Part shown: positions 1 to 5,057 of the stretch, piece by piece
Position numbering within the stretch: position 1 is the first letter of the stretch
How the letters are laid out: every line of letters begins with the position of its first letter
IMG/VR virus record: IMGVR_UViG_3300029749_000526
Length of the DNA stretch: 5,057 nucleotides
Origin: a virus
Taxonomy: Duplodnaviria; Heunggongvirae; Uroviricota; Caudoviricetes
Direction: 5' to 3' (one strand)
Notes under the pieces: generated by a model
Databases searched by the model: none
The model's input: only the letters and a program-made list of their open reading frames with translations
What the model was told of the DNA's origin: nothing
Translations under genes and position numbers: made by a program

Positions 1-636
1 GATCAGATATTTATGAACGAAGTGTTCCTGAAATACCTGACGGCTCCCACCATTACCAGCGGCGGTAATCCTCCGGCATTTTCCCTGACACCGGACGGGC
101 GGCTGACGGCGAAAAATGCCGATATCAGCGGTAACGTGAATGCGAACTCCGGGACGCTCAACAATGTCACGATTAATCAGAACTGCCGGATTCTGGGAAA
201 ACTGTCAGCCAACCAGATTGAAGGCGATATTGTTAAAACGGTGGGCAAAGCTTTCCCCCGGGACTCCCGTGCACCGGAGCGGTGGCCATCAGGGACCATT
301 ACCGTCAGGGTTTATGACGATCAGCCGTTTGACCGGCAAATTGTTATTCCGGCGGTGGCATTCAGTGGCGCTAAACATGAGCAAGATCATACTGATATCT
401 ACTCCTCATGCCGTCTGATAGTACGAAAAAACGGTGCTGAAATTTATAACCGAACGGCTCTGGATAATACGCTGATATATACGGGTGTTATTGATATGCC
501 TGCAGGCAGTGGTGTAATGACACTGGAATTTTCTGTATCGGCATGGCTGGTAAATGGCTGGTATCCCACAGCAAGTATCAGCGATTTGCTGGTTGTGGTG
601 ATGAAGAAAGCCACCGCAGGCATCAGTATCAGCTGA
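1..636 (+). CDS. J: Tail tip host-specificity protein J, C-terminal portion (5'-partial; the reading frame is open from base 1 and continues upstream of the window)
   Basis: Open frame from position 1 to TGA at 634-636. Its position immediately upstream of lom and stf matches the lambda J-lom-stf gene order. The translated C-terminus (…[32 protein letters not shown]) fits my recollection of lambdoid J receptor-binding C-termini. The ATG at 13 is internal, not the true start. Confidence 0.8.
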
Positions 637-655
637 ATTTTATAACCCCAATACG

Positions 656-679
656 GGCGTCAGAAATGACGCCTTTTTT
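656..679 (+). terminator. Putative rho-independent terminator downstream of J
   Basis: Perfect 7-bp inverted repeat GGCGTCA (656-662) / TGACGCC (667-673) with a GAAA loop, followed directly by a T-run (674-679), 20 nt after the J stop codon. Confidence 0.6.
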
Positions 680-703: not shown

Positions 704-1303
704 ATGCGTAAATTATGTGCTGTTATTCTGTCCGCAGTAGTCTGGCTGGTTGCCGCTGGTACGCCAGCGAGCGCAGCAGAGCATCAGTCCACACTAAGCG
801 CCGGGTATCTTCAGGCCCATACTGATATGCCAGGCAGTGATGACCTGAAGGGCATTAACGTGAAATACCGTTATGAATTTACGGACACGCTGGGGCTGGT
901 GACGTCATTCAGTTATGCCAATGCCAAAGATGAGCAAAAAACGCATTACAGCGATACCCGCTGGCATGAAGATTCAGTGCGTAACCGCTGGTTCAGCATG
1001 ATGGCGGGGCCATCTGTACGCGTGAATGAATGGTTCAGTGCTTATGCGATGGCAGGTGTGGCTTACAGCCGTGTTTCGACGTTCTCCGGGGATTATCTCC
1101 GCGTAACTGACAACAAGGGGAAAACGCACGATGTGCTGACCGGAAGTGATGACGATCGCCACAGCAACACGTCTCTGGCGTGGGGAGCTGGCGTGCAGTT
1201 TAACCCGACCGAATCCGTGGCCATTGATATTGCTTATGAAGGCTCCGGCAGTGGTGACTGGCGCACTGACGGTTTCATCGTGGGTGTCGGTTATAAATTC
1301 TGA
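704..1303 (+). CDS. lom: Outer-membrane beta-barrel protein Lom (Ail/Lom family), a lambdoid lysogenic-conversion moron
   Basis: 199-aa ORF with a typical Sec signal peptide (MRKLCAVILSAVVWLVAAGTPASA/AEH), alternating amphipathic beta-strand character and a C-terminal aromatic residue (…GVGYKF) typical of outer-membrane barrels. Lies between J and stf as in lambda. GAGAGG Shine-Dalgarno at 693-698, 5 nt before the ATG. Confidence 0.9.
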   Translation: MRKLCAVILSAVVWLVAAGTPASAAEHQSTLSAGYLQAHTDMPGSDDLKGINVKYRYEFTDTLGLVTSFSYANAKDEQKTHYSDTRWHEDSVRNRWFSMMAGPSVRVNEWFSAYAMAGVAYSRVSTFSGDYLRVTDNKGKTHDVLTGSDDDRHSNTSLAWGAGVQFNPTESVAIDIAYEGSGSGDWRTDGFIVGVGYKF

Positions 1304-1367: not shown

Positions 1368-3764
1368 ATGGCAGCAGTAAAAATCTCAGGTGTGCTGAAA
1401 GATGGTGCGGGAAAACCAATACAGAACTGCACTATTCAACTGAAGGCAAAGCGTAACAGCACCACGGTACTGGTGAACACGGTGGCTTCTGAAAATCCGG
1501 ATGAAGCCGGACGTTACAGCATGGATGTTGAGTATGGCCAGTACAGCGTCACCCTGCTGGTTGAAGGTTTTCCGCCTTCACATGCCGGGACCATTACCGT
1601 CTATGAAGGTTCCAGACCAGGTACGCTGAATGATTTTCTCGGTGCCATGACGGAAGATGATGTCATGCCGGAGGCATTGCGCCGTTTTGAGGCAATGGTG
1701 GAAGAAGCGGCACGCAACGCCGAAGCCGCCTCTCAGAGCGCAGCGGCGGCAAAGAAATCCGAAACTGCAGCGGCATCATCGAAGAACGCGGCGAAAACCT
1801 CAGAAACGAATGCAGCTAACAGCGCACAGGCGGCAGCGGCCTCGCAGACTGCATCGGCAAACTCCGCGACAGCAGCCAAAAAATCAGAAACCAACGCGAA
1901 AAATAGCGAGACAGCCGCAAAGACGAGCGAAACCAACGCAAAGTCCAGCCAGACGGCAGCGAAGACCAGCGAAACGAATGCCAAAGCCAGCGAAACTGCG
2001 GCGAAAAGCAGTCAGGATGCAGCAGCTGAAAGCGAGAGTGCCGCAGCTGGTTCTGCGACTTCAGCAGCTGGATCAGCAACTGCTGCGGCTAACAGCCAGA
2101 AAGCAGCGAAGACGAGCGAAACCAACGCAAAGTCCAGCCAGACGGCAGCGAAGACCAGCGAAACGAATGCCAAAGCCAGCGAAACTGCGGCGAAAAGCAG
2201 TCAGGATGCAGCAGCTGAAAGCGAGAGTGCCGCAGCTGGTTCTGCAAGTGCGGCGGCTGCTTCTGCCACTGCATCAGCAAACAGTCAAAAAGCTGCAAAA
2301 ACCAGTGAAACCAACGCAAAGGCGAGCGAGACTGCGGCGGCTAACTCGGCGCAAGCATCGGCAGCAAGCCAGACAGCAGCTAAAGCAAGTGAAGACGCAG
2401 CCAGAGAGTATGCAAGTCAGGCAGCAGAGCCGTATAAATATGTCTTACAGCCACTGCCTGATGTGTGGATACCGTTTAACGATTCACTGGAAATGATTAC
2501 TGGTTTCGCCCCAGGTTATAAAAAAGTCACTATCGGTGATGATGTTATTACTTTTCCATCAGAGAAGGTTGTATCTTTCACCCGCTCTACTTCTGCAACA
2601 TATATAAACAAATCAGGTTCGTTTACTTTTGCAGAAATTAACGAGCCGCGCTTTGAAAAGGAAGGTTTATTAATTGAAGGTCAGAGGACAAATACATTTA
2701 CTAATAGCAATAATCCTTCATTATGGAACTATGACGACAAGAATATAGAAATAACCACATCGGTTGATGAATATGGTTTTAAATATGGTTTGTTCGATGT
2801 AAAGGAAACATCAACCACTGAAAGGGCGACGATAATATCTACTGGATACAGTAGGGTTATTGATGTTGCTGCAAATGAATCTGTTACCTTGTCCTGTAGG
2901 GTTAAGAAGATAAATGGAGAAGGTATTATAACGTTAAGACCCAGAATATCTTTCGTTAACGATGACGGCACAAGCAACACGCTGGTAGCTGGTTCCTACA
3001 TAGATTGCGAAACTGGTGATGTTTTAGGTTTTTCTGGTGGGGATGCTGTAAATCATGTCATATACAGAGAAGCTAACGGATGGTTACGCGTCGAATTTAC
3101 ATATAAATCACCAGAAGCAAAAAGCATGTATGGGCGCTTTGAAATGGGAGCAGATAAAAGGGCGATCAAAAAAGGCGATCAGATAATGTTTACTACGCCG
3201 CAATTTGAAAAAGGATCGTGTGCATCATCATTTATCGTTACATCAGATGTGGCAGTTACACGGGCTAGTGACGTGGTAATAATGCCAATAAGACTGAACT
3301 GGTCAACACCTCCGTTAAGCGTTCTTATGGAAGTTAATATCAACTGGGACAAAATGCCAAACAGTGAAGGTTCAGCAAGGCTTCTTAACGTGTCAATAAC
3401 TGGCGCAACAACGGATGTTGCTGATGAAAGTTATATGTATTTTGGTTTTACCTCTGGAGGCGCGCGCTCAATTATAACTAACGGAAAAGGAACAAAGACC
3501 GAGTATAAAGCCTACTGTAACAGGACAACCCGCAGGTTTATTGCTGGGTTTAAGTTTACAGAGCAGAAAGAATTGCGTGCTGTTATAAACGGTAACTTTG
3601 GCGCTGTTGGTGTATCACAACACACAAGACAACGTTATACAGAAGGGCCAATAAATATAGGCGGTCAATCAATATCAGGTAACAGGCATTTATTTGGACA
3701 CGTGCGCAATTTACGTATCTGGCATAAGGAACTGACAGATGCACAAATGGGAGAAAGAATATAA
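1368..3764 (+). CDS. stf: Side tail fibre protein (lambda Stf-like N-terminus and repetitive shaft, with a divergent C-terminal distal domain)
   Basis: Long ORF ending at TAA 3762-3764. I place the start at ATG 1368 (GGAG at 1359-1362, 5-nt spacer) rather than the in-frame GTG at 1362 used by the ORF track. The N-terminus (MAAVKISGVLKDGAGKPIQNCTIQLKA…RYSMDVEYGQYSV…GFPPSHAGTITVYE) matches my recollection of the lambda Stf N-terminal region. The central region is Ala/Ser/Thr-rich with reiterated KTSETNAK-type motifs, typical of fibre shafts. The C-terminal ~440 aa are compositionally distinct and not lambda-like. Confidence 0.85.
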   Translation: MAAVKISGVLKDGAGKPIQNCTIQLKAKRNSTTVLVNTVASENPDEAGRYSMDVEYGQYSVTLLVEGFPPSHAGTITVYEGSRPGTLNDFLGAMTEDDVMPEALRRFEAMVEEAARNAEAASQSAAAAKKSETAAASSKNAAKTSETNAANSAQAAAASQTASANSATAAKKSETNAKNSETAAKTSETNAKSSQTAAKTSETNAKASETAAKSSQDAAAESESAAAGSATSAAGSATAAANSQKAAKTSETNAKSSQTAAKTSETNAKASETAAKSSQDAAAESESAAAGSASAAAASATASANSQKAAKTSETNAKASETAAANSAQASAASQTAAKASEDAAREYASQAAEPYKYVLQPLPDVWIPFNDSLEMITGFAPGYKKVTIGDDVITFPSEKVVSFTRSTSATYINKSGSFTFAEINEPRFEKEGLLIEGQRTNTFTNSNNPSLWNYDDKNIEITTSVDEYGFKYGLFDVKETSTTERATIISTGYSRVIDVAANESVTLSCRVKKINGEGIITLRPRISFVNDDGTSNTLVAGSYIDCETGDVLGFSGGDAVNHVIYREANGWLRVEFTYKSPEAKSMYGRFEMGADKRAIKKGDQIMFTTPQFEKGSCASSFIVTSDVAVTRASDVVIMPIRLNWSTPPLSVLMEVNINWDKMPNSEGSARLLNVSITGATTDVADESYMYFGFTSGGARSIITNGKGTKTEYKAYCNRTTRRFIAGFKFTEQKELRAVINGNFGAVGVSQHTRQRYTEGPINIGGQSISGNRHLFGHVRNLRIWHKELTDAQMGERI
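1920..2245 (+). repeat. In-frame tandem direct duplication inside the stf shaft region (two copies of about 137 bp at a 189-bp period)
   Basis: The segment about 1920-2056 (…gacgagcgaaaccaacgcaaagtccagccagacggcagcgaagaccagcgaaacgaatgccaaagccagcgaaactgcggcgaaaagcagtcaggatgcagcagctgaaagcgagagtgccgcagctggttctgc) recurs at about 2109-2245 with apparent nucleotide identity. It encodes AKTSETNAKSSQTAAKTSETNAKASETAAKSSQDAAAESESAAAGSA twice. The 189-bp period equals 63 codons, so frame is preserved. Confidence 0.8.
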
Positions 3765-4045
3765 TGCGAGACTTAACCCTCAAATTCATAAACAAGGCCG
3801 ACTTTTCGGCCTTTATGGATAGCATTGGTTATGAAGATGACGAGGTAATGCAGAACAATGTTCTCATTGATGTGATAGGTAACGTGTACAAAGAAACCGG
3901 AGAACTTACTGAAGATGGCGAACCGGTATGTGTTAAGGAAGACGGATATTTTGTAAACGTGCGCATCATTAATGATGTGAAAACACCGTCAATATTCGAT
4001 GAATACGTGGTTGCTGTTGAGCATCAACTTCGTGGCTGGATGTGA
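3764..4045 (+). CDS. Hypothetical small acidic protein (93 aa), translationally coupled to stf; possible fibre accessory or chaperone protein
   Basis: The ATG at 3764-3766 overlaps the stf TAA stop (ATAATG) by 1 nt. GGGAGA lies upstream at 3749-3754. The ORF ends at TGA 4043-4045. The translation has 19 Asp/Glu against 8 Lys/Arg (estimated net charge about -11). I recognise no family from the sequence alone. Confidence 0.55.
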   Translation: MRDLTLKFINKADFSAFMDSIGYEDDEVMQNNVLIDVIGNVYKETGELTEDGEPVCVKEDGYFVNVRIINDVKTPSIFDEYVVAVEHQLRGWM

Positions 4046-4054
4046 GGGAGACAA

Positions 4055-4756
4055 ATGGCTACATCGACAGTAATTCCAGGAGATATCACCACGCTAAAGG
4101 GAGATGTCAGTAAAACTAAGGAAGATATTTCCTCAATTAACGGAAAAGTATCAACGCTTCAGATTGATATGACCAGTGCAAAGCAGGATATCAGCACCAG
4201 ATACACAAAAACTGAAGTTGATAATAAGCTGAAAAACAAAGTGGAAGCGAACGATCTGGAAAGCGGTCGTTATGGCGGTGATTTTTACCCGCTGACAGGT
4301 CGTGAAGCGTTTTATTTATGGAATTTGGCCACGACTACAGCTGCGGCAAACCTTTATCTTAATCCTGACCCCGCAATTTCGTCTGTTCTGCGGTCAACAT
4401 CGTCTATCCGCTATAAACATTCAGTAGAGACGATAGATTCAGAGCACGCCGATCTCATTTTCAAGATGCGCCCTGTGTGGTACAGGTCGCAATGCGAAAA
4501 TGACAGGCGTGACTGGGGATTCTACGGATTGATTGCCGAGGAAGTAGGAGAAATTGCCCCTCAGTTTGTACACTGGCGACCAGCTAACGAAGATGATGCA
4601 CCGGAAGCTATTTCCAGCAATGGCCTTGTTGCCGAAGGTGTGATGTACGAACGTCTGGTTGTTCCACTGATTCACCATATCCAGAAACTGACAGAAAGAG
4701 TTGATGAACTTGAGTCAGAATTAAAGCTGTTATCAACTTCCCGAAGCGATATCTGA
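4055..4756 (+). CDS. Tail-fibre-like protein with an N-terminal coiled-coil segment and a C-terminal peptidase S74-like intramolecular chaperone domain
   Basis: AGGGAG Shine-Dalgarno at 4045-4050, 4 nt before ATG 4055. The C-terminal ~115 aa (SSIRYKHSVETIDSEHADLIFKMRPVWYRSQ…GFYGLIAEEVGEIAPQFVHW…GLVAEGVMYERLVVPLIHHIQKLTERVDELESELKLL) follow the pattern I recall for the S74 chaperone-of-endosialidase domain (SDxxLKxNI…L+PVxY…GxIAQEVxxxxPElV…, ending in a coiled-coil). The N-terminal ~100 aa (DITTLKGDVSKTKEDISSINGKVSTLQIDMTSAKQDIS…) are heptad-like. Confidence 0.75.
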   Translation: MATSTVIPGDITTLKGDVSKTKEDISSINGKVSTLQIDMTSAKQDISTRYTKTEVDNKLKNKVEANDLESGRYGGDFYPLTGREAFYLWNLATTTAAANLYLNPDPAISSVLRSTSSIRYKHSVETIDSEHADLIFKMRPVWYRSQCENDRRDWGFYGLIAEEVGEIAPQFVHWRPANEDDAPEAISSNGLVAEGVMYERLVVPLIHHIQKLTERVDELESELKLLSTSRSDI

Positions 4757-4769
4757 TAAAGGAGGAGTA

Positions 4770-5057
4770 ATGGATATAAGCCCCTTACTTCATGCGCTTT
4801 GTGCTGTGGCTGCGCAGGTACTGGTTGGTTTTTTTACCGGAAACTGGGCTTACGGGGCGATAGCCGGTTGTACATTCTTCATTGCGCGGGAACACACCCA
4901 GGCAGAATATCGCTGGATTGAAATGTTCGGGCATGGCAAGCGGATTAACATGCCATGGTGGGGCGGTTTTGATCCACGTGCATGGGATGTGGCAAGCCTG
5001 ATGGATTTTGCTGTGCCGGTGGTGGCGTGTCTGCTGATCTGGATGTTGATCCGTTAA
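4770..5057 (+). CDS. Hypothetical small membrane protein (95 aa, 2-3 predicted transmembrane segments); possible moron or superinfection-exclusion candidate
   Basis: Strong Shine-Dalgarno AAAGGAGGA at 4758-4766, 3 nt before ATG 4770. The ORF ends at TAA 5055-5057. Hydrophobic stretches at residues ~5-22 and ~26-39 (PLLHALCAVAAQVLVGFF, WAYGAIAGCTFFIA) and ~74-94 (VASLMDFAVPVVACLLIWMLI) are separated by a charged, Trp-rich loop (REHTQAEYRWIEMFGHGKRINMPWWGGFDPRAW). It starts 13 nt after the preceding gene. Confidence 0.6.
   Translation: MDISPLLHALCAVAAQVLVGFFTGNWAYGAIAGCTFFIAREHTQAEYRWIEMFGHGKRINMPWWGGFDPRAWDVASLMDFAVPVVACLLIWMLIR

What the first reader, a model, noticed from the sequence alone, without database searches (positions are those of the whole stretch)
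1920..2245. Recent 189-bp in-frame tandem duplication in the fibre shaft
Two about 137-bp blocks appear nucleotide-identical at an exact 189-bp (63-codon) offset, embedded in a longer region of degenerate KTSETNAK / ASETAAK / SQ(D/T)AAA repeats. Near-perfect nucleotide identity implies a recent duplication or ongoing repeat homogenisation. Such repeats can expand or contract by slipped-strand or RecA-mediated recombination, changing fibre length. They are also a common cause of assembly collapse, so the true copy number may differ from what is shown.
Basis: seen in the sequence. Interest (0 to 1): 0.4.

Follow-up and report, generated by a model that had tools for sequence, protein, structure and literature searches.

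The report
Homogenised old repeat in phage fibre
Two perfectly identical 137-base blocks in a prophage side-tail-fibre gene are real, but they come from recent copy-correction (gene conversion) between two old 63-codon repeats that most related E. coli prophages also carry, not from a new duplication; this is ordinary repeat dynamics in a coiled-coil fibre shaft.

Summary
Positions 1920-2056 and 2109-2245 are 137/137 identical at an offset of 189 nt (63 codons). The next-longest exact repeat in the window is 15 nt. The blocks lie in the Ala/Ser-rich heptad region (about aa 96-352) of a lambda Stf-type side tail fibre gene (1368-3764) in an E. coli lambdoid prophage.

The "recent duplication" reading is not supported. 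The other 52 nt of each unit differ at 17 sites. About 960 complete E. coli genomes carry the same two-unit layout, with copies that differ at 4-14 of the 137 sites. The window's copy 1 carries copy-2 states at 7 diagnostic sites (1991-2048). Its copy 2 carries copy-1 states at 2117 and 2123. Across 14 alleles the 137-nt block has no fixed difference between copy positions, while the 52-nt spacer has 13.

Copy number does vary. Strain AVS0655 has the window's allele minus exactly 189 nt, and at least five one-copy haplotypes exist. No three-copy allele was seen. A second, independent assembly has the same identical pair, so it is not an assembly artefact. The finding is ordinary and of low interest.

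The parts
13..636 (+). 3' end of the tail-tip gene J (C-terminal receptor-binding domain); context only
   Evidence: Pfam PF12421 Ig_GpJ_C, E 2.3e-38. Annotated gpJ in the source genome.
704..1303 (+). lom (Ail/Lom outer-membrane beta-barrel), bracketed by terminator-like hairpins at 655-674 and 1330-1351; context only
   Evidence: Pfam PF06316, E 2e-127. Terminator scan.
1368..3764 (+). Intact side tail fibre gene of the lambda Stf type, 798 codons
   Evidence: ORF list. phrog_1419 full length. 100% identical to E. coli AMSCJX02 NZ_CP031105.1. Annotated as a full-length CDS in relatives L003 and L005.
1374..1763 (+). N-terminal collar domain (aa 3-132) that attaches the fibre to the tail
   Evidence: Pfam PF08400 phage_tail_N, E 1e-66. 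PDB 9E7M/9MGH lambda gpStf collar matches aa 3-95, E 9e-49. Described in PMC12617516.
1653..2423 (+). Ala/Ser-rich heptad region (aa 96-352), predicted alpha-helical; the counterpart of lambda's trimeric proximal coiled coil
   Evidence: AF2 monomer gives helices 96-229 and 236-352 at pLDDT about 60-78. About 35 uninterrupted heptads in the printed register. Lambda gpStf residues 102-393 are the proximal coiled coil.
1920..2056 (+). X block, copy 1 (137 nt), identical to copy 2
1991..2048 (+). Minimal conversion tract in copy 1. Seven sites (1991, 2003, 2008, 2012, 2017, 2045, 2048) carry the copy-2 state relative to the nearest two-copy allele, L007.
   Evidence: Mismatch lists and variable-site tables. 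The segment 1985-2056 is identical to copy 2 of L007 and L009 and to one-copy L002.
2057..2108 (+). Y1 spacer of unit 1 (52 nt). It differs from Y2 at 17 sites and is orthologous to Y1 of the relatives.
   Evidence: 13 fixed Y1/Y2 differences across alleles.
2109..2245 (+). X block, copy 2 (137 nt). Sites 2117 and 2123 carry the copy-1 state.
2246..2297 (+). Y2 spacer of unit 2. It is followed by a partial, diverged third unit from 2298.
2670..3266 (+). C-terminal distal module with a GTA_spike_fiber domain (aa 435-633), unlike lambda's own distal part
   Evidence: NCBIfam NF048003, E 1.5e-20. phrog_5939 aa 368-796.
3764..4045 (+). 93-codon ORF of unknown function whose start overlaps the stf stop (TAATG); conserved downstream partner
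   Evidence: phrog_1361, E 3e-44. Present in all related loci.
4055..4756 (+). 233-codon tail-fibre-domain protein with a C-terminal S74 intramolecular chaperone domain
   Evidence: Pfam PF13884, E 3.7e-6. phrog_3299.

Best explanation
The 189-nt (63-codon, 9-heptad) unit was duplicated long ago in the coiled-coil shaft of this family of lambdoid side tail fibres. Two units, each made of a 137-nt X block and a 52-nt Y spacer, are the standard layout in E. coli prophages.

The X blocks of the two units keep exchanging sequence by homologous recombination, that is, ectopic gene conversion within a gene or between co-resident or co-infecting prophages. In the lineage of this window, such exchange recently erased every difference between X1 and X2. 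The 3' part of copy 1 took the copy-2 sequence. The 5' end of copy 2 carries the copy-1 sequence.

The tract ends at 2056/2057, where paralogous homology stops. That is why identity covers 137 nt and not 189 nt.

The resulting perfect direct repeat is a good substrate for unequal crossing-over or replication slippage. This would remove exactly 189 nt in frame and shorten the trimeric helical shaft by 63 residues, about 9 nm at roughly 0.15 nm per residue. An allele with exactly that deletion exists in nature.

Shown here: the identity, the mosaic site pattern, the shared polymorphism between copy positions, the natural one-copy alleles, and the independent second assembly.

Inferred: the recombination mechanism, the direction window-type to one-copy, the trimeric coiled-coil geometry, and any effect on adsorption.
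For: (1) The exact 137-nt identity is real, but the Y segments differ at 17 of 52 sites.

(2) The two-copy layout is the norm. 960 of 5426 complete E. coli genomes cover at least 80% of 1368-2500, and all 60 top hits span 1131-1133 nt. The best non-self identity is 97.2%.

(3) X1/X2 mismatches per allele form a continuum: 0 (window), 4, 7, 7, 8, 9, 9, 11, 12, 13, 13, 13, 14. Y1/Y2 stays near 17.

(4) Compared with L007, all 9 sites where L007's copies differ are resolved in the window to the paralogous state, 7 in copy 1 and 2 in copy 2.

(5) The window's b-segment is identical to copy 2 of L007 and L009. Its a-segment is identical to copy 1 of L007 and L012.

(6) Across 14 alleles, X has 0 fixed differences between copy positions. 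Between-copy divergence is 7.1%, against allelic diversity of 5.4% and 4.9%. Y has 13 fixed differences, with 28% between copies against 5-10% allelic.

(7) Other alleles are homogenised over other tracts. L014 has an 88-nt run. L017 (90 nt) and L018 (82 nt) have Y1 overwritten by a Y2-type sequence. L005 has copy 2 partly converted to copy-1 type.

(8) 25 different copy1/copy2 haplotype combinations occur among 120 protein clusters, and the same haplotypes appear at both positions.

(9) L002 equals the window minus exactly 189 nt, with no other difference between 1844 and 2943. Five different one-copy haplotypes exist. L006 has a different junction.

(10) The independent assembly L020 has the same 137-nt pair.

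(11) The region is helical and corresponds to lambda's proximal coiled coil.
Against: No sampled allele is the exact unconverted parent, so neither the number of events nor their direction can be read off. An allelic crossover with an L014-like allele, which already carries the copy-2-type b segment in copy 1, could have produced the same sequence without a new ectopic event in this lineage.

The direction window-type to L002 is inferred. The reverse route, a patch from an L002-like allele into a two-copy allele, is also possible.

The sample is 14 two-copy alleles plus 120 protein clusters, not the whole population.

The AF2 model is a monomer with modest confidence (mean pLDDT 59). The trimeric coiled coil rests on homology to lambda gpStf, and sequence similarity to the solved structure covers only the collar domain.

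No functional consequence of fibre length was tested.
Confidence: 0.8

Rival explanations
1. Allelic shuffling rather than a new ectopic event. The copy-2-type b haplotype was already sitting at copy 1 in some alleles (L014, L015, L016). Ordinary in-register recombination between prophage alleles then brought together a copy 1 and a copy 2 that happen to be identical. The underlying paralogous exchange would be older than this lineage.
For: L014 copy 1 differs from the window's copy 1 at only two sites, 1964 and 1991. 25 haplotype combinations show rampant allelic recombination. The source genome has 6 places that match stf, so donors are at hand.
Against: Site 1991 carries C in the window's copy 1 but T in copy 1 of all 12 other two-copy alleles in the table, including L014. 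An L014-like donor alone therefore does not give the window. The scenario still needs an earlier ectopic conversion to explain why one haplotype occurs at both positions, so it changes the timing and not the mechanism.
Confidence: 0.15
2. A truly recent de novo tandem duplication of a 189-nt unit from a one-copy allele.
For: The 137-nt identity is perfect and the offset is exactly in frame. A one-copy allele (L002) is nearly identical in its flanks.
Against: A fresh duplication makes at least 189 identical bases. Here 17 of the remaining 52 differ. The window's Y1 matches the Y1 of the two-copy relatives, so unit 1 is orthologous to theirs. The two-copy layout with diverged copies is present in about 960 genomes.
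Confidence: 0.03
3. An assembly or polishing artefact. Reads mis-mapped between two similar copies made the consensus of both copies identical, or the true copy number differs.
For: Repeats of this kind are known to trouble assemblers. Most database homologues are truncated at contig ends.
Against: An independent assembly (GCA_043150945.1, L020) differs from the window at 6 sites in lom yet has the identical 137-nt pair. The hybrid X sequence also occurs in the independently sequenced AVS0655 one-copy allele. The two-copy count is the population norm. The converted sites form two clean blocks and not a per-site mixture.
Confidence: 0.02

Closest known systems
Bacteriophage lambda (Ur-lambda) side tail fibre gpStf
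   Same: Same genomic position (J - lom - stf). The N-terminal collar domain is homologous (PF08400; PDB 9E7M, E 9e-49). It is followed by a long Ala/Ser/Thr-rich heptad region, which in lambda forms the trimeric proximal coiled coil (residues 102-393; PMC12617516).
   Different: The distal half is unrelated to lambda's. It has a GTA_spike_fiber-type module (NF048003) in place of the gp37-like distal coiled coil and OmpC-binding tip. No Tfa-like assembly gene follows; instead there is a 93-aa ORF and a 233-aa protein with an S74 chaperone domain. The specific 63-codon two-unit repeat is a feature of this allele family. Whether lambda itself has it was not examined.
Concerted evolution (ectopic gene conversion and unequal crossing-over) of tandem intragenic repeats, as described for repeat-containing bacterial surface proteins and multigene families (comparison from general knowledge)
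   Same: Paralogous copies share polymorphisms and have no fixed differences. Conversion tracts of different extent occur in different alleles. Copy number changes in frame. The tract stops where homology stops.
   Different: There are only two units, and the homogenised segment covers 137 of 189 nt. The spacer part mostly escapes conversion. No evidence of selection for variation was obtained.
Mosaic, module-swapping evolution of phage tail fibre genes (comparison from general knowledge of the P2, Mu, lambda and T-even fibre literature)
   Same: The conserved N-terminal and shaft part is joined to several unrelated C-terminal modules in different prophages. Recombination is frequent within the shaft.
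   Different: The event examined here is an exchange between two repeats inside one gene, not a swap of receptor-binding modules.

Membership tests
Lambda Stf-type side tail fibre | N-terminal collar domain (Pfam PF08400 phage_tail_N; lambda gpStf residues 1-91) | tested here: met
   PF08400, E 1e-66, aa 3-132. PDB 9E7M/9MGH, E 9e-49, aa 3-95.
Lambda Stf-type side tail fibre | Gene located directly downstream of J and lom in a lambdoid tail module | tested here: met
   J C-terminus at 13-636, lom at 704-1303, stf at 1368.
Lambda Stf-type side tail fibre | Long proximal trimeric alpha-helical coiled coil after the collar | tested here: inconclusive
   A helix is predicted for aa 96-352, but from a monomer model of modest confidence. 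The heptad pattern is continuous. The trimeric state is inferred only from lambda.
Lambda Stf-type side tail fibre | Lambda-like distal domain plus Tfa assembly chaperone | tested here: not met
   The C-terminal half hits GTA_spike_fiber and phrog_1419/5939. The downstream ORFs are phrog_1361 and an S74-domain protein, not Tfa. It is therefore an Stf-family fibre with a different distal module.
Recent de novo tandem duplication | The whole duplicated unit is identical, or nearly so, between the copies | tested here: not met
   Only 137 of 189 nt are identical. The other 52 nt differ at 17 sites.
Recent de novo tandem duplication | Closest relatives have one copy, and the duplicate is lineage-specific | tested here: not met
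   About 960 genomes share the two-copy layout. One-copy alleles are rare, about 4-5 genomes.
Concerted evolution / gene conversion between paralogous repeats | Differences from relatives cluster in tracts and match the paralogous copy | tested here: met
   9 of 9 sites that are paralog-variable in L007 are resolved to the paralogous state in the window.
Concerted evolution / gene conversion between paralogous repeats | Polymorphisms shared between copy positions, with no fixed paralog-specific sites in the converted segment and fixed sites outside it | tested here: met
   X has 0 fixed differences and Y has 13. The same protein haplotypes occur at both positions.
Concerted evolution / gene conversion between paralogous repeats | Independent events with different tract limits in different lineages | tested here: met
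   L005, L014, L017 and L018 show different homogenised tracts.
Contingency locus / programmed phase variation | Short simple-sequence tract or dedicated recombinase/invertible element that gives high-frequency reversible switching | tested here: not met
   The unit is 189 nt and in frame. No inverted repeats or recombinase lie in the window. The switching rate is not testable with these tools.

The most novel reading that the evidence does not exclude
Homogenisation of the X blocks might be kept by selection and not merely tolerated. A perfect 137-nt repeat would let a prophage population throw off shorter (one-unit) and perhaps longer side fibres at appreciable frequency. That would be a recombination-based tuning of fibre reach, matched to host surface-layer thickness such as O-antigen or capsule.
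Probability: 0.05. Interest if true: 0.5.

Novelty: new member of a known kind. Interest (0 to 1): 0.2.

Why it matters
The practical value is mainly cautionary and descriptive.

Perfect identity between tandem copies should not be read as a recent duplication unless the whole unit and the relatives have been checked. In this gene it marks gene conversion between old repeats.

The result also documents that the coiled-coil shaft of Stf-type fibres in E. coli prophages is length-polymorphic. The populated length classes differ in heptad multiples (63, 28 and 14 residues), and the shaft is a recombination hot zone. This matters for people who engineer chimeric lambda side fibres and for short-read assembly and annotation of these genes. 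PGAP mis-annotates this intact ORF as fragments in several genomes.

No new biology is implied unless fibre length turns out to be functionally tuned.

Tried and rejected
(1) I tested for three-copy alleles with synthetic Y1-X-Y1 and Y2-X-Y2 queries and a coverage criterion. The test did not discriminate, because megablast extends through the diverged Y segments; the source genome itself scores 100% coverage. It did lead to L017 and L018, which have X-Y2-X-Y2. No shaft longer than the two-copy form appeared among 120 protein clusters, but the search was not exhaustive.

(2) I tested the idea that all length variants keep the heptad phase. It is rejected as a strict rule. Populated classes differ by 63, 28 or 14 residues, but singletons with -4, -12, -30 and -41 exist. 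The -13 class is -14 plus a different C-terminal junction.

(3) No Chi sites occur in the window, so there is no evidence of a Chi-stimulated hotspot.

(4) A literature search for described gene conversion or repeat variation in Stf shafts found nothing relevant.

(5) Pfam, PHROGs and NCBIfam gave no function for ORFs 3764-4045 and 4770-5057.

(6) The fold search was not used. The AF2 model is a low-confidence monomer of a trimeric fibre, so matches would be meaningless.
Full report
**What is in the window**

The 5057-nt window is 100% identical to part of a lambdoid prophage in the chromosome of E. coli AMSCJX02 (NZ_CP031105.1). It holds these features:
- the 3' end of the tail-tip gene J (13-636; PF12421);
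- lom (704-1303; PF06316), bracketed by two terminator-like hairpins;
- an intact 798-codon gene (1368-3764);
- three small downstream ORFs.

The 798-codon protein begins with the 'prophage tail fibre N-terminal' domain (PF08400, E 1e-66, aa 3-132). That domain matches the solved collar domain of the lambda side tail fibre gpStf (PDB 9E7M/9MGH, E 9e-49, aa 3-95). In Ur-lambda the collar (residues 1-91) and a short linker are followed by a trimeric proximal coiled coil (residues 102-393; PMC12617516).

In the window's protein, aa ~113-357 read as about 35 uninterrupted Ala/Ser-rich heptads. An AlphaFold2 monomer model predicts helix for aa 96-229 and 236-352 at modest confidence (pLDDT about 60-78). 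The break and fold-back sit at the Gly-rich segment, as expected when one chain of a trimer is modelled alone.

The C-terminal half carries a GTA_spike_fiber-type domain (NF048003, aa 435-633) and is not lambda-like.

**Checking the observation**

At an offset of exactly 189 nt, positions 1920-2056 equal 2109-2245 without a single mismatch, 137 nt in all. The next-longest exact repeat anywhere in the window is 15 nt. Tandem Repeats Finder reports a 189-nt period over 1901-2339 (2.3 copies) and 21/42-nt sub-periods.

The identity does not cover the whole unit, however. The other 52 nt (Y1, 2057-2108, against Y2, 2246-2297) differ at 17 sites. A fresh duplication of a 189-nt unit would give at least 189 identical bases.

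**Relatives**

The two-unit layout is not peculiar to this strain.
- 960 of 5426 complete E. coli genomes cover at least 80% of 1368-2500.
- All 60 best hits span 1131-1133 nt, which means two units.
- The best non-self identity is only 97.2%.

I compared two-copy alleles from other chromosomes, plasmids and phages. Their X blocks differ from each other at 4, 7, 7, 8, 9, 9, 11, 12, 13, 13, 13 and 14 of 137 sites, and Y1/Y2 differ at about 17 of 52 in nearly all. The window sits at the zero end of a continuum.

**Where the window differs from the relatives**

Nearly all relatives differ from the window at the same cluster of sites in copy 1 (1991-2048) and at 2105, 2117 and 2123. The variable-site tables show the following.
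- The window's copy 1 carries the state typical of copy 2 at the sites that separate copy 1 from copy 2 in the relatives.
- Segment 1985-2056 of the window is identical to copy 2 of L007 and L009.
- Segment 1920-1984 of both window copies is identical to copy 1 of L007 and L012.
- Relative to L007, all nine sites at which L007's two copies differ are resolved in the window to the paralogous state. Seven are in copy 1 (1991, 2003, 2008, 2012, 2017, 2045, 2048) and two are in copy 2 (2117, 2123).

Independent point mutations cannot plausibly do this. The tract ends at 2056/2057, exactly where paralogous homology ends, which explains the figure of 137 nt.

**Population pattern**

Across 14 alleles the X block has no site with a fixed difference between copy positions. 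Between-copy divergence is 7.1%, barely above allelic diversity within a position (5.4% and 4.9%). The 52-nt Y spacer has 13 fixed differences, with 28% divergence between copies against 5-10% allelic.

Other alleles are homogenised over different tracts:
- L014 has an 88-nt identical run.
- L005 has copy 2 partly converted to the copy-1 type.
- L017 and L018 have Y1 overwritten by a Y2-type sequence, giving runs of 90 and 82 nt.

Among 120 protein clusters there are 25 different combinations of copy-1 and copy-2 haplotypes. The same haplotypes occur at both positions. Identical pairs are rare: one cluster of the window type and two of the opposite type.

This is the signature of recurrent ectopic gene conversion plus allelic recombination, that is, concerted evolution.

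**Copy-number change**

E. coli AVS0655 (L002) carries a 2208-nt gene that equals the window's gene minus exactly one 189-nt unit. It has no other difference between window positions 1844 and 2943. Phage IdasGreatGrand (L006) is also one-copy, but with a different hybrid X. Its crossover lies between 2028 and 2039 of an L008-like parent. Five different one-copy haplotypes occur among the protein clusters.

Contraction has therefore happened several times. It remains rare, at about 4-5 complete genomes against roughly 960 with two units.

Shaft-length classes among homologues are:
- 247 aa (two units, 45 clusters);
- 234 aa (two units minus two heptads, with another C-terminal junction; 59 clusters);
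- 184 aa (one unit, 7 clusters);
- 233 aa and 219 aa;
- a few singletons whose indels are not heptad multiples.

Heptad phase is thus usual but not strictly kept. Nothing longer than two units was seen. My direct test for three units did not discriminate.

**Artefact?**

A third-party assembly of another genome (GCA_043150945.1, contig DAYGOI010000062.1; L020) matches the window over 2794 nt except at six sites in lom. It has the same 137-nt identical pair. The hybrid X sequence also occurs in the independently sequenced AVS0655. An assembly or polishing artefact is therefore very unlikely. Only raw reads could close that question for AMSCJX02 itself.

**Mechanism and its status**

Shown:
- the duplication is old;
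- the identity arose by replacing paralog-specific sites with the other copy's states;
- such exchange is recurrent in the population;
- an exact one-unit contraction of this very allele exists.

Inferred:
- The exchange is homologous-recombination gene conversion. It could be intragenic or between co-resident prophages; the source genome has six stf-like places.
- The perfect 137-nt repeat makes this allele more prone to unequal crossing-over or slippage than alleles with 4-14 mismatches.
- One unit adds about 9 nm to a trimeric coiled coil (63 residues at about 0.15 nm each, from general knowledge of coiled-coil geometry).

The main open alternative is timing. The copy-2-type segment may already have sat in copy 1 of an L014-like allele and reached this lineage by ordinary allelic recombination. 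Site 1991 argues against L014 as the sole donor.

**Comparison with what is known, and verdict**

The gene belongs to the lambda Stf family by its collar domain and genomic position, with a different distal module. The repeat dynamics are a standard case of concerted evolution of intragenic tandem repeats inside the well-known mosaic evolution of phage fibre genes. I found no paper that describes this particular repeat, but nothing about it is unexpected.

It is a new example of a known kind.

Noticed in passing
window 1368-3764 (L001 6001-8397): RefSeq/PGAP annotation of the source genome splits this intact 798-codon ORF into four features: a 'pseudogene' N-fragment (1368-1734), an antisense 'hypothetical protein' WP_096211417.1 (1733-1984, minus strand), an out-of-frame 'phage tail protein' WP_396012966.1 (2167-2496, the frame of the Arg-rich ORF 1657-2496), and an in-frame C-terminal CDS (2493-3764). 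The same fragmentation occurs in L004, L010, L015 and L016, while L003 and L005 carry the full CDS. The antisense and out-of-frame products hit no NCBIfam model.
   Followed up: partly
window 1657-2496 (+), 1733-1984, 1816-2079, 2012-2173, 2089-2319 (-): The repeat region is open in several other frames on both strands (up to 279 codons, Arg/Gln-rich). This is most likely a by-product of the biased, repetitive codon content and not evidence of overlapping genes.
   Followed up: no
window 655-674 and 1330-1351: Two strong terminator-like hairpins with T tracts bracket lom. This makes lom look like a self-contained cassette between J and stf.
   Followed up: partly
window 292-306 and 1587-1601: A 15-nt exact repeat, GGGACCATTACCGTC, occurs in the J C-terminal domain and in the Stf collar domain. 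Both copies encode GTITV. By my estimate about 0.01 such pairs are expected by chance in 5 kb.
   Followed up: no
window 3764-4045, 4055-4756, 4770-5057: The genes downstream of stf are not a lambda-type tfa. They are a 93-aa ORF (phrog_1361) whose start overlaps the stf stop (TAATG), a 233-aa tail-fibre-domain protein with an S74 intramolecular chaperone domain, and a 95-aa ORF with hydrophobic stretches (phrog_1443). This trio is conserved next to every related stf examined.
   Followed up: partly
protein hits P0001-P0120: Most database homologues are 'partial' proteins of 470-630 aa that end at contig ends. Short-read assemblies routinely break inside this gene, probably because several prophages per genome share its 5' half. 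The median is 2 matching places per genome and the maximum is 13.
   Followed up: no
P0043, P0045, P0119, P0120, P0117: Single clusters carry shaft indels that are not heptad multiples (-4, -12, -30, -41 aa). One (P0117) has a short out-of-frame patch (AAARPRRLHRQTS). It is unknown whether these are functional fibres, decaying prophage genes or sequencing errors.
   Followed up: no
L017 3615-4844; L018 1233-1691; L013 1883-3876: Related stf loci are hit by mobile elements or decay. There is an IS3-family insertion inside stf on plasmid p13TMH22-2, an IS200C between lom and stf in CFSAN018748, and a frameshifted stf in SCU-482.
   Followed up: no
L019 (NZ_OZ369471.1 plasmid, 1937-4267): A 106-kb plasmid, present in many 'Esc' isolates, carries a 776-aa fibre gene with a related shaft repeat but without the Stf collar at the same position. 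It was annotated only as a phage head spike fiber domain protein.
   Followed up: no
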